This document shows, one piece after another, positions 12,524 to 13,480 of a DNA stretch of 33,273 nucleotides. The notes under the pieces were generated by a model that searched no databases, was not told where the DNA came from, and worked only from the letters and a program-made list of their open reading frames with translations. Within the stretch, counting starts at the first letter, position 1, and each line of letters begins with the position of its first letter. The translations under genes were made by a program, and so were the position numbers. Source of the stretch: Candidatus Woesearchaeota archaeon (lineage in GTDB: Archaea > Nanobdellota > Nanobdellia > Woesearchaeales > GW2011-AR4); the NCBI GenBank assembly GCA_016185815.1, contig JACPMT010000053.1:1-33273 (forward strand), read 5' to 3'.

Positions 12524-13237
12524 ATGGATTCAGATAAAGAAAAGACTTTTATCGGAAAGTCCCTACGAGTTTTTGTAAGCTATGCTACTGAGGATAGATT
12601 TCTTGCAGTGGCATTAAAGAGAGAGTTGGAGGATTTTGGAATTGATGTTTTTTTAGCACATGAAGACATTACCCCTACTACTGATTGGCAAGCTACAATA
12701 CTAGCCACACTTAAACAGTGTGATATTTTCTTACCTTTATTGACAAATAATTTTTCTAAATCGCCGTGGACTGATCAAGAAACAGGAGTTGCTATAGCGA
12801 CGCAGAAATTTATTATTCCACTAAAAGTTAATATCGATCCTTATGGCTTTATTGGAAAATATCAAGCATTTAAATTTGGATACGAGACTCGAGAGTTAGA
12901 CAATGGTAATTATTATTATGATTGTAAAGATTCATGCAGAAATATAGTAAATTTAATCCTTAGGCATAAAACATTAAGAGAAAATTTGAAGGATTGCTTA
13001 ATTAGAGTTTTTGCAAATTGTGTCACATTTGCCGAAGCCAAAGAAAAAGCAGAGCTATTGGGTAATTTTGAAAGTTTTACAGAAGAGCAAATTTCAGAAA
13101 TAATAAAGGTAAGCGTAAACAATAACCAAATACATGATTCTTGGGGAGCGAGACCAATTTTACAAAAGCTTATTTCTAATTACGATAAACTAATTGATGA
13201 TAAAAAGAAAGAGGAATTGCTAAAATTAATTAAGTAG
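12524..13237 (+). CDS. TIR-domain protein with an uncharacterised helical C-terminal domain (candidate defence protein)
   Basis: LRVFVSYATEDRFLAVALKRELEDFGIDVFLAHEDITPTTDWQATILATLKQCDIFLPLLTNNFSKSPWTDQETGVAIA matches the bacterial TIR pattern (FxSY..eD...a..l...L...g..vf.d, then S.W...E). The C-terminal about 110 aa are unassigned. Confidence 0.8.
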   Translation: MDSDKEKTFIGKSLRVFVSYATEDRFLAVALKRELEDFGIDVFLAHEDITPTTDWQATILATLKQCDIFLPLLTNNFSKSPWTDQETGVAIATQKFIIPLKVNIDPYGFIGKYQAFKFGYETRELDNGNYYYDCKDSCRNIVNLILRHKTLRENLKDCLIRVFANCVTFAEAKEKAELLGNFESFTEEQISEIIKVSVNNNQIHDSWGARPILQKLISNYDKLIDDKKKEELLKLIK

Positions 13238-13258
13238 ATCAAAAATTTTACTAGTAAA

Positions 13259-13480
13259 ATGGAGTGGACTGAAAAAATAACTTTTGGGCAATATTCCAGA
13301 AGTCAAGTAAGGGAACTTTTAAATTTAGGAACTAAATGTAAGAACTACGAAGACGCTATAAATGTTCTTATTGATGTTTTAAAAAGACACCCAGAACTGA
13401 AAGAAGAGCTACTTAGAGAAGCACAAAGGCTATCCAATCCTAAGCCAAAAGTGGATTTACAATTTCTTAAAGATAAATGA
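13259..13480 (+). CDS. small hypothetical helical protein downstream of the TIR gene
   Basis: 73-aa ORF lying 21 nt after the TIR stop on the same strand. Charged/helical composition, no family recognised. Confidence 0.4.
   Translation: MEWTEKITFGQYSRSQVRELLNLGTKCKNYEDAINVLIDVLKRHPELKEELLREAQRLSNPKPKVDLQFLKDK

What the first reader, a model, noticed from the sequence alone, without database searches (positions are those of the whole stretch)
12524..13480. Stand-alone TIR-domain protein with unknown C-terminal domain next to an IS element: candidate archaeal immune gene
**Seen in sequence.**
- Residues about 14-100 show a canonical TIR pattern (VFVSYATED...GIDVFLAHEDI...IFLPLLTNNFSKSPWTDQE).
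- A glutamate sits in the position where NAD-cleaving TIRs carry their catalytic Glu.
- About 110 helical residues with no recognisable family follow.
- A 73-aa ORF starts 21 nt downstream.
- The gene has its own A/T-rich promoter-like region and lies in the accessory island between an IS110 element and an RHS relic.

**Established knowledge.** Prokaryotic TIR domains act in antiviral systems (Thoeris ThsB, TIR-pAgo, CBASS/type III CRISPR effectors), either making nucleotide signals or depleting NAD+.

**Inference.** This is a compact one- or two-gene defence module. No ThsA-like, Argonaute or SAVED partner is present in the window, so the effector logic would be different or self-contained.
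Basis: partly seen in the sequence, partly recalled or inferred. Interest (0 to 1): 0.6.

Follow-up and report, generated by a model that had tools for sequence, protein, structure and literature searches.

The report
Stand-alone TIR enzyme with DARNA-like sensor
This archaeal gene encodes a probable NAD-destroying TIR immune enzyme fused to a small helical domain related to the single-stranded-DNA sensor of the bacterial anti-phage protein DARNA, so it is most likely an untested one-gene antiviral suicide switch, and the 73-residue ORF beside it shows no sign of being its partner.

Summary
ORF 12524-13237 (237 aa) has a clear TIR_2 domain (residues 16-119). Glu86 aligns with the catalytic Glu of Cat1 and L6 and is kept in 250 of 251 relatives.

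The "unknown" helical tail (126-237) is not an orphan. It is the defining second domain of a large family found in at least 201 bacterial and archaeal species. It matches the distal part of the C-terminal ssDNA-sensing domain of DARNA/PD-T7-3 (PADLOC E 3e-6; PDB "Dandelion" E 1e-4; hhalign 85%). Its best-conserved residues (aromatic 169, N200, Q202) align with DARNA F368, N401 and Q403; F368 and Q403 contact DNA bases.

No partner gene is conserved across 77 homologue loci. At least nine homologues sit beside or inside restriction-modification operons. The 73-aa ORF has no relative at any homologue locus.

The host is a Woesearchaeota (DPANN) MAG. The gene is patchy in its genus, and its nearest relative is bacterial.

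Best reading: a single-protein abortive-infection NADase, possibly switched on by ssDNA. That activity and trigger are inferred, not shown.

This scan's earlier notes describe the same TIR-plus-DARNA-like architecture in three other genomes.

The parts
12440..12523 (+). A/T-rich upstream region with a TATA-like TTTATTAA about 30 nt before the ATG; putative archaeal promoter
   Evidence: Read directly from the sequence. Function not tested. The 196-nt spacer after the IS110 gene shows no stable RNA fold (z +1.66) and no Rfam match.
12524..13237 (+). Gene for the 237-aa TIR plus DARNA-like sensor protein (stop codon included)
   Evidence: ORF. Full-length relatives reach E 1e-81. The closest relatives are also 229-256 aa, so the gene looks intact.
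12566..12880 (+). TIR domain, residues 15-119
   Evidence: Pfam TIR_2 69.6 bits. AF2 strand/helix pattern. Foldseek TIR matches.
12779..12781 (+). Codon of Glu86, the predicted catalytic glutamate (motif S80-x-W82-x-D-Q-E86)
   Evidence: Conserved in 250 of 251 family members. Aligns with Cat1 E74 and the L6 motif Glu. Cat1 S68 and S7 align with near-invariant S80 and S19.
12899..13234 (+). C-terminal helical domain, residues 126-237, related to the distal ssDNA-binding part of the DARNA C-terminal domain
   Evidence: PADLOC PD-T7-3 positions 317-419 of 432, E 2.9e-6. Profile against PDB 'Dandelion' 9wxf/9wwz, E 1.2e-4. hhalign against the DARNA family 84.7%, E 6.6e-6. AF2 pLDDT 91.
13028..13030 (+). 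Codon of Phe169, aligned with DARNA F368 (base-stacking residue)
   Evidence: Aromatic in 241 of 251 members. Alignment. DARNA F368A is inactive (bioRxiv 10.64898/2026.02.22.705581).
13121..13144 (+). Motif N200-N-Q202-I-H-D-S-W207, aligned with DARNA N401-N-Q403-C-Y-W406
   Evidence: N200 in 235 of 251, Q202 in 211 of 251, aromatic at 207 in 179 of 251. DARNA Q403 makes two hydrogen bonds to thymine and W406 stacks on a base. The Trp is offset by two residues and lies just outside the aligned block.
13259..13480 (+). Adjacent 73-aa orphan ORF; listed for completeness, not shown to belong to the system
   Evidence: No relative at about 90 homologue loci. None at E <= 0.001 in 200 same-order genomes. 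No family match below E 0.003.

Best explanation
The gene encodes a single-protein antiviral (abortive-infection) effector.

Anatomy, shown here:
- An N-terminal TIR domain with an intact NADase-type active site (S19, S80, W82, E86).
- A compact seven-helix, ARM/HEAT-like C-terminal domain.
- This tail is homologous to the distal part of the C-terminal domain of DARNA (PD-T7-3), the part that reads bases of single-stranded DNA.

Mechanism, inferred:
1. In uninfected cells the protein is inactive.
2. During infection the C-terminal domains of several protomers bind an infection-specific ligand. Exposed or viral-SSB-coated ssDNA is the most likely candidate.
3. Binding brings the TIR domains into the oligomeric arrangement that forms composite active sites, as in Cat1, SPARTA, TIR-SAVED and SARM1.
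4. The enzyme then hydrolyses NAD+ and stops growth of the infected cell.

In this reading the family is the TIR-effector counterpart of the HEPN-effector DARNA: the same sensor module on a different killing domain.

The copy in this window is a laterally acquired accessory gene of a Woesearchaeota (DPANN) archaeon, lying next to an IS110 element.
For: TIR identity and active site:
- Pfam TIR_2 69.6 bits.
- AF2 pLDDT 93 with TIR matches at probability 1.0.
- E86 is kept in 250 of 251 relatives, S19 in 240 and S80 in 246.
- These align with Cat1 active-site residues S7, S68 and E74, whose S68A and E74A substitutions abolish function (PMC12162218).

Family:
- 219 cluster representatives match at E <= 1e-30, and the best 150 listed match across most or all of the protein.
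- 201 species in GTDB representatives span many bacterial and archaeal phyla.
- Archaeal and bacterial sequences are interleaved in the tree.

Sensor homology, three routes:
- The PADLOC PD-T7-3 model hits the tail of this protein and of 6 of the 10 other members scanned (E 1e-7 to 4e-4).
- The tail profile hits PDB 'Dandelion' 9wxf (12 chains) and 9wwz at E 1.2e-4. Its aligned 69-residue segment is identical to P2-EC30 Z-region ORF1. That ORF is taken to be DARNA: numbered from Met17, it carries every residue the DARNA preprint names (R117, H122, F368, D372, W406, N408), and 9wxf is a 12-chain assembly.
- hhalign of the tail against the DARNA family gives 84.7%, E 6.6e-6, residues 140-204 to DARNA 339-405.

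Conserved tail residues: the best-conserved ones (aromatic 169, N200, Q202) coincide with DARNA F368, N401 and Q403. F368 and Q403 contact ssDNA bases, and F368A or W406A kills defence.

Stand-alone:
- The largest neighbour cluster covers 5 of 77 loci.
- It is the only TIR in the genome, and no SIR2_2 was found.

Defence context of relatives:
- Inserted between type III Mod and Res (L037).
- Next to or inside type I operons (L053, L070, L073; by BLAST cluster also L051, L090).
- Next to MmeI (L032), an Eco57I-like enzyme (L033) and a ResIII protein (L016).

Accessory status here:
- One full-length homologue (40% identity) in 24 same-genus genomes, and none in 16 other families.
- The best relative, at 57% identity, is from Zixibacteria.
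- GC dips to 25-32% around the gene.
Against: - No activity, trigger or phenotype has been measured for any member of this family.
- The sensor homology is moderate: hhalign 85% over 65 columns at about 20% identity.
- The tail covers only about a third of the roughly 300-residue DARNA C-terminal domain.
- DARNA D372, the cytosine contact, aligns with a variable position (K173 here).
- The Trp equivalent is offset by two residues and is aromatic in only 179 of 251 members.
- The gammaproteobacterial 284-aa subgroup did not hit the PD-T7-3 model.
- Fold searches give only generic ARM/HEAT-repeat matches (Z <= 9, within the noise range for helical repeats). No DARNA structure appeared in those searches, so no structural superposition was made.
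- DARNA needs a dodecamer to bind ssDNA, and nothing shows this protein oligomerises.
- In this window no recognised defence gene is adjacent. The neighbours scanned are a transposase, a radical SAM enzyme, an ORF without a Pfam match and glycan-synthesis genes; the 73-aa ORF has no family.
- Most homologue loci also have ordinary neighbours.
Confidence: 0.55

Rival explanations
1. It is a defence NADase, but the tail senses something other than ssDNA, such as a phage protein, RNA or a nucleotide. Alternatively the tail serves mainly as an oligomerisation scaffold, and the likeness to DARNA reflects shared ancestry of a helical-repeat module without a shared ligand.
For: One DARNA contact, D372, is not conserved, and the Trp is shifted. 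The tail is a third of the length of the DARNA domain. ARM/HEAT repeats bind many ligand types. The 284-aa subgroup lacks a PD-T7-3 hit.
Against: The most conserved tail positions are those aligned with the DARNA base-reading residues F368 and Q403, rather than scattered core positions.
Confidence: 0.22
2. It is a ThsB-like signal-producing TIR. On infection it makes a nucleotide second messenger for an effector encoded elsewhere in the genome.
For: The TIR scores best against ThsB-type and Thoeris type III ThcB4 models (PADLOC ThsB 32.8 bits; NCBIfam ThcB4 53 bits). The catalytic Glu is shared by cyclase-type and hydrolase-type TIRs.
Against: The scores cover the TIR core only and are far below the ThcB4 cut-off (37-59 against 220 bits, for short and long forms alike). 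No ThsA-like or other conserved neighbour appears at 77 loci. No SIR2_2 was found in this 90%-complete genome. The Cap17-like/SLOG search was uninformative because its controls found nothing. The family spreads as a single gene across domains.
Confidence: 0.1
3. It is a two-gene module in which the 73-aa ORF is an antitoxin, inhibitor or adaptor of the TIR protein.
For: The ORF starts 21 nt downstream on the same strand. A different tiny ORF (46-57 aa) is conserved downstream of three relatives, L058, L059 and L091, so small partners exist in one sub-lineage.
Against: The 73-aa ORF has no relative at any of about 90 homologue loci. It is not similar to the tiny partner of L058, L059 and L091. 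It has no convincing relative in 200 same-order genomes. It matches no family below E 0.003. The closest homologues are followed by unrelated genes: a prolyl oligopeptidase and a methyltransferase.
Confidence: 0.06
4. It is not an immune gene. It would be a TIR-fold or nucleoside-deoxyribosyltransferase-like enzyme with a housekeeping or regulatory role, or an inert passenger of the IS110 element.
For: The top Foldseek rows include nucleoside 2'-deoxyribosyltransferases, and there is a weak Pfam Nuc_deoxyrib_tr hit at E 0.044. Most neighbours of family members are ordinary genes.
Against: The gene is patchy within the genus and has been transferred between domains. It is inserted inside RM operons. 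It has a strictly conserved TIR catalytic motif and a tail shared with a proven defence protein. TIR_2 scores far above Nuc_deoxyrib_tr.
Confidence: 0.05

Closest known systems
DARNA (= PD-T7-3; ORF1 of the Z region of E. coli prophage P2-EC30, AJ512676.1; PDB 'Dandelion' 9wxf/9wwz; bioRxiv 10.64898/2026.02.22.705581)
   Same: Both are single-protein systems. The C-terminal helical (Pds5/HEAT-like) module is homologous over about 65-100 residues. The conserved aromatic and N-x-Q motif correspond to the DARNA base-contacting F368 and Q403. Both have an N-terminal killing domain and a C-terminal sensor.
   Different: The effector here is a TIR (predicted NADase), not a HEPN Rx4H tRNA anticodon nuclease. 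The sensor is about 110 residues instead of about 300. D372 is not conserved and the Trp is shifted. Oligomeric state and ligand are unknown. The family is found in archaea, CPR and many bacterial phyla, whereas the close DARNA relatives recovered here were mainly Gammaproteobacteria.
Cat1 (CARF-TIR effector of type III CRISPR-Cas; PDB 9mud; PMC12162218)
   Same: It is the closest solved TIR by sequence (profile E 3e-7). The active-site residues S7, S68 and E74 align with S19, S80 and E86. It illustrates a TIR NADase switched on by ligand-driven assembly through a fused sensor domain.
   Different: In Cat1 the sensor is a CARF domain that binds cA4 made by a CRISPR complex. Here there is no CARF, no CRISPR link, and the sensor lies C-terminal of the TIR.
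Thoeris ThsB / type III ThcB4 and retron RT-TIR (type XII)
   Same: These are the best-scoring defence TIR models for the TIR core.
   Different: The scores are far below the family cut-offs and limited to the TIR core. There is no ThsA or ThcA effector and no reverse transcriptase. The C-terminal domain is unrelated to those models.
Short pAgo SPARTA (TIR-APAZ), TIR-SAVED, TIR-STING, SpbK
   Same: All are TIR NADases that cause abortive infection after sensor-driven oligomerisation. The structural matches have probability 1.0.
   Different: No APAZ/Argonaute, SAVED or STING domain or partner is present. A nucleic-acid trigger would be read directly by the fused helical domain.

Membership tests
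TIR domain superfamily (Pfam TIR_2, PF13676) | Profile score above the curated cut-off | tested here: met
   69.6 bits against a cut-off of 28, residues 16-119; 70.9 bits in the genome search.
TIR domain superfamily (Pfam TIR_2, PF13676) | Flavodoxin-like TIR fold | tested here: met
   AF2 pLDDT 93. Foldseek gives probability 1.0 to SARM1, MyD88, RUN1, SPARTA and SpbK TIR domains.
Catalytic (NAD-cleaving) TIRs | Glutamate at the catalytic position of the W-x-x-x-E motif | tested here: met
   E86 aligns with Cat1 E74 and the L6 WCLMEL Glu. Conserved in 250 of 251 members.
Catalytic (NAD-cleaving) TIRs | Measured NADase or cyclase activity | not testable with these tools
   Needs a biochemical assay.
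Thoeris (ThsB with ThsA) | An adjacent ThsA-type effector (SIR2, Macro or TM domain with SLOG) | tested here: not met
   None among the window ORFs scanned. No conserved neighbour at 77 loci. SIR2_2 was not found in the 90%-complete genome.
Thoeris type III ThcB4 (NCBIfam NF058526) | Score at or above the equivalog cut-off of 220 bits | tested here: not met
   53 bits for this protein, and 37-59 bits for nine other short-form and long-form members; TIR core only, except L037.
DARNA / PD-T7-3 | N-terminal HEPN domain with the Rx4H motif | tested here: not met
   The N-terminal domain is a TIR. The PD-T7-3 model matches only positions 317-419 of 432.
DARNA / PD-T7-3 | C-terminal helical ssDNA-binding domain | tested here: inconclusive
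   The distal part is homologous (E 2.9e-6; E 1.2e-4; hhalign 84.7%). However only about 65-100 of about 300 residues are covered, and no superposition on the DARNA coordinates was made because no DARNA structure appeared in the fold searches.
DARNA / PD-T7-3 | Base-contacting residues F368, D372, Q403 and W406 | tested here: inconclusive
   F368 aligns with F169 (aromatic in 241 of 251) and Q403 with Q202 (211 of 251). D372 aligns with variable K173. The W406 equivalent is shifted by two residues and aromatic in 179 of 251.
DARNA / PD-T7-3 | ssDNA-activated higher-order oligomer | not testable with these tools
   Needs mass photometry or cryo-EM with ssDNA.

The most novel reading that the evidence does not exclude
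One ssDNA-sensing module has been coupled in evolution to at least two different suicide effectors: the HEPN tRNase in DARNA and a TIR NADase in this family. The TIR version would be a cross-domain, single-gene immune system that also works in ultra-small DPANN archaea and CPR bacteria, detecting viral replication intermediates directly rather than through a second messenger.
Probability: 0.45. Interest if true: 0.65.

Novelty: new variant of a known kind. Interest (0 to 1): 0.5.

Why it matters
Stand-alone TIR proteins are common in prokaryotic genomes, but what switches them on is mostly unknown.

This work links the conserved tail of a large TIR family to the residue-level ssDNA-reading site of DARNA. 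That gives a specific, cheap test: NADase activity with and without ssDNA, plus E86A, F169A and Q202A variants.

If the hypothesis holds, it would show sensor-module swapping between RNase and NADase effectors. It would extend DARNA-type sensing from enterobacterial prophages to archaea and candidate-phyla bacteria. It would also add one of the few candidate innate-immune genes known for DPANN archaea.

For this window alone the gene is one more member of that untested family.

Tried and rejected
1. Complex prediction of the TIR protein with the 73-aa ORF: no verdict (score 0.00, partner fold uncertain). It is not used for or against binding.

2. Fold searches with the isolated tail (Foldseek PDB; VIA wide; VIA second look): only generic ARM/HEAT-type repeats appeared (Enp1 Z 9.0, importins, DRT4 Z 8.1, Pds5B Z 6.5). 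These are within the noise range for helical repeats. No DARNA or Dandelion chain appeared, so a structural comparison with DARNA could not be made.

3. ESM Atlas look-alikes of the tail: the best score, 0.77, is below the informative range.

4. Single-sequence phmmer of the TIR part against PDB: no hit. The profile was needed.

5. Idea that the spacer after the IS110 gene (12250-12445) encodes a bridge-type RNA: no Rfam match, and the fold is no better than shuffles (z +1.66). Dropped.

6. Inverted repeats that might delimit a TIR cassette: only weak A/T-rich pairs, judged to be chance. No second IS copy in the assembly defines the IS ends.

7. Search for PD-T7-3 in 401 Gammaproteobacteria: one partial HEPN hit only. 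The DARNA sequence was instead recovered by tblastn with a 69-residue segment printed (plasmids: none; phages: P2-EC30).

8. Marginal hits of the 73-aa ORF (E about 0.009) inside a MoxR-like AAA+ gene of the same genome and one other genome: judged spurious.

9. Literature searches for a description of this TIR fusion: none found in the held library. The DARNA preprint does not mention TIR.
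Full report
**The observation**

The window holds an ATG-initiated ORF at 12524-13237 (237 aa) and a 73-aa ORF at 13259-13480, 21 nt downstream on the same strand.
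- Pfam places a TIR_2 domain on residues 16-119 (69.6 bits, cut-off 28).
- An AlphaFold2 model built on 33 relatives is confident (pLDDT 93, pTM 0.88).
- Foldseek matches its first half to SARM1, SPARTA, SpbK, MyD88 and plant TIR structures at probability 1.0.
- In profile alignments to solved structures, E86 pairs with Cat1 E74 and with the Glu of the L6 WCLMEL motif. S80 and S19 pair with Cat1 S68 and S7.
- These Cat1 residues line its NADase site, and the S68A and E74A substitutions abolish function (PMC12162218).
- Residues 126-237 are seven predicted helices with no Pfam family.

**The protein is not an orphan**

- A full HMMER scan of 1.84 billion cluster representatives found 219 proteins at E <= 1e-30. 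The best 150 listed match across most or all of the protein, covering both domains.
- A word-indexed search gave 110 relatives, named only 'TIR domain-containing' or 'hypothetical'.
- A scan of one genome per GTDB species found the family in 201 species. These include Zixibacteria, Ignavibacteria, Acidobacteriota, Patescibacteria, Proteobacteria, Woesearchaeota, Bathyarchaeia, Methanoperedens, Thermoplasmata and Micrarchaeota.
- Across 251 members the TIR motif residues are almost invariant: E86 250, Q85 249, G88 250, S80 246, S19 240.
- A family-specific D-P-Y-G-F motif (residues 105-109) is equally fixed.
- Many members carry an extra N-terminal extension of 85-130 residues with no Pfam match. 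The window's protein and its nearest relatives are the short form, so it is not truncated.

**What the tail is**

The PADLOC model of PD-T7-3 matches residues 127-227 at model positions 317-419 of 432 (E 2.9e-6). It also matches the tails of 6 of the 10 other family members scanned (E 1e-7 to 4e-4).

PD-T7-3 has been characterised as DARNA (bioRxiv 10.64898/2026.02.22.705581):
- It has a HEPN tRNA anticodon nuclease domain.
- Its approximately 300-residue helical C-terminal domain binds ssDNA in a dodecamer and so activates the enzyme.

In the reverse direction, a profile of the tail alone hits the PDB entries called 'Dandelion' (9wxf, 12 chains; 9wwz) at E 1.2e-4. I recovered the matching gene by tblastn as ORF1 of the P2-EC30 Z region; the aligned 69-residue segment is identical. 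Numbering from Met17 reproduces all published DARNA residue numbers: R117, H122, F368, D372, W406 and N408.

A profile-profile comparison of the tail alignment with 19 DARNA relatives gives 84.7% probability, E 6.6e-6. Residues 140-204 align with DARNA 339-405.

The aligned block contains the tail's most conserved positions:

| This family | Conservation | DARNA position | Role in DARNA |
|---|---|---|---|
| aromatic 169 | 241 of 251 | F368 | stacks on thymine; F368A kills defence |
| N200 | 235 of 251 | N401 | invariant in the DARNA family |
| Q202 | 211 of 251 | Q403 | two base-specific hydrogen bonds to thymine |
| aromatic 207 | 179 of 251 | W406, offset by two residues | stacks on the next base; W406A kills defence |
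| K173 (variable) | not conserved | D372 | cytosine contact |

The family's aromatic at 207 falls just outside the alignment. Any sequence preference may therefore differ from DARNA's.

I rate homology of the module as probable (about 0.8) and conservation of ssDNA binding as plausible but unproven (about 0.45-0.5).

Fold searches with the isolated tail returned only generic ARM/HEAT repeats, including Pds5B, the fold the DARNA authors cite. All were at Z <= 9, which is not discriminating for helical repeats. No DARNA chain appeared, so no superposition was made.

**One gene or two**

I extracted neighbours at 77 homologue loci and clustered them. The largest neighbour family occurs at 5 loci, so there is no conserved partner.

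The 73-aa ORF:
- It has no relative at about 90 fetched loci.
- It has nothing convincing in 200 genomes of the same order.
- It matches no family.
- The nearest homologues are followed by unrelated genes: a prolyl oligopeptidase and a methyltransferase.

A different tiny ORF (46-57 aa) is conserved downstream in three related loci, L058, L059 and L091. It is not similar to the window's ORF.

The complex prediction gave no verdict.

The two-gene reading is therefore unsupported for this window (about 0.06).

**Defence context**

Most neighbours of family members are ordinary genes. At nine or more of 77 loci, however, the gene abuts or sits inside restriction-modification operons:
- between type III Mod and Res with 6-nt gaps (L037);
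- after type I HsdR (L053);
- after HsdS (L070, L073; by BLAST cluster also L051 and L090). In L073 HsdR and a second TIR-TPR protein follow;
- beside MmeI (L032), an Eco57I-like enzyme (L033) and a ResIII protein (L016).

Judged against my general expectation that RM genes make up about 1% of genes, this is a clear enrichment. I did not compute a matched control.

In the window itself the neighbours are different:
- an IS110-family transposase (11035-12249);
- the orphan ORF;
- a convergent B12-binding radical SAM gene;
- a glycan-synthesis cluster.

GC falls to 25-32% around the gene, against 35-43% further along.

**Host and history**

- The assembly is a 0.97-Mb, 90%-complete MAG.
- Its same-genus relative G001 coincides with a 'Candidatus Woesearchaeota archaeon' record. 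The archaeal (DPANN) attribution therefore holds.
- Only one of 24 same-genus genomes has a full-length homologue, at 40% identity. None of 16 genomes from other families of the order has one.
- The best relatives, at 51-57% identity, are from Zixibacteria and Ignavibacteria.
- In a FastTree phylogeny, archaeal and bacterial sequences interleave repeatedly. The window's protein falls in a weakly supported group with Zixibacteria, Ignavibacteria and three Woesearchaeota.

This is the pattern of a mobile accessory gene.

**Mechanism**

Shown:
- an intact TIR catalytic motif;
- a two-domain family;
- stand-alone spread;
- partial RM association;
- a tail related to the DARNA sensor.

Inferred: the tail binds an infection-specific ligand, most likely ssDNA. 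Binding assembles several protomers so that the TIR domains form active NADase sites, as in Cat1, SPARTA or TIR-SAVED. NAD+ depletion then aborts the infection.

The main rival is that the tail senses something else (0.22). A ThsB-like signalling role (0.10) is disfavoured for three reasons:
- no effector is linked to the gene anywhere;
- scores against ThcB4 are far below the cut-off (37-59 against 220 bits);
- no SIR2_2 was found in the genome.

**Comparison and novelty**

The gene is not a member of Thoeris or of DARNA, because defining features were tested and not met. It works like the sensor-fused TIR effectors and shares its sensor module with DARNA.

I found no published description of this fusion in the held library. 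The DARNA preprint does not mention TIR.

Earlier notes of this scan reached the same TIR-plus-DARNA-like reading for a Patescibacteria, a Micrarchaeota and another Woesearchaeota genome. I reached it independently before looking and re-tested the claims here.

I class the family as a new variant of a known kind, and this copy as one more member. It is of moderate interest because it turns the open question of what triggers stand-alone TIR proteins into a direct experiment.

Noticed in passing
window 2663-8443 (+), with 8473-9840: A 1926-aa ORF with SpvB, TcdB_toxin_midN, FG-GAP and RHS-repeat domains, that is, an Rhs/Tc-type polymorphic-toxin-like shell protein, in a DPANN archaeon. It is followed by a 455-aa ORF with no Pfam match. 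The three ORFs before it (28-2631) also have no family.
   Followed up: no
window 13546-13578 (+): An isolated 11-residue RHS-repeat peptide, identical in 10 of 11 residues to residues 1032-1042 of the large RHS ORF. It lies between the 73-aa ORF and the radical SAM gene. It looks like a remnant of an RHS gene or a recombination scar.
   Followed up: partly
window 10790-10924 (-) and 10312-10782 (-): A 44-aa ORF sits directly upstream of a 156-aa hydrophobic ORF that looks like a multi-pass membrane protein. By eye (not tested) the 44-aa ORF looks like a ribbon-helix-helix/CopG-type protein. The stretch has the lowest GC in the window (24.6%) and lies just before the IS110 gene.
   Followed up: no
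L058 2924-3094, L059 6470-6616, L091 8641-8835: A tiny conserved ORF (46-57 aa, shared E-Y-x-x-Y-x-K-I-I-K-M-V-D-x-A-H-K-K motif) lies immediately downstream of the TIR-sensor gene in a gammaproteobacterial, a Roizmanbacteria and a Bathyarchaeia MAG. It may be a lineage-specific partner.
   Followed up: partly
L073 13704-16292 (+): In a Thermoanaerobaculia type I RM island (HsdS, TIR-sensor, two ORFs, HsdR with a C-terminal S24 peptidase domain), a second, unrelated TIR protein with TPR repeats (863 aa) follows HsdR.
   Followed up: no
L052 about 8001-8668: In a Methanoperedens MAG the family gene appears split. The ORF that follows the TIR part encodes the tail on its own (82 aa). This is either a frameshift or pseudogene, or a naturally split form.
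   Followed up: no
PADLOC model PDC-S34 (PDLC05001), positions 294-382 of 384: The C-terminus of this candidate defence protein also matches the tail of this family (E 1e-5 to 8e-7 for P0002 and P0014; E 9e-4 for the window protein). The sensor module may therefore sit on a third kind of N-terminal domain.
   Followed up: no
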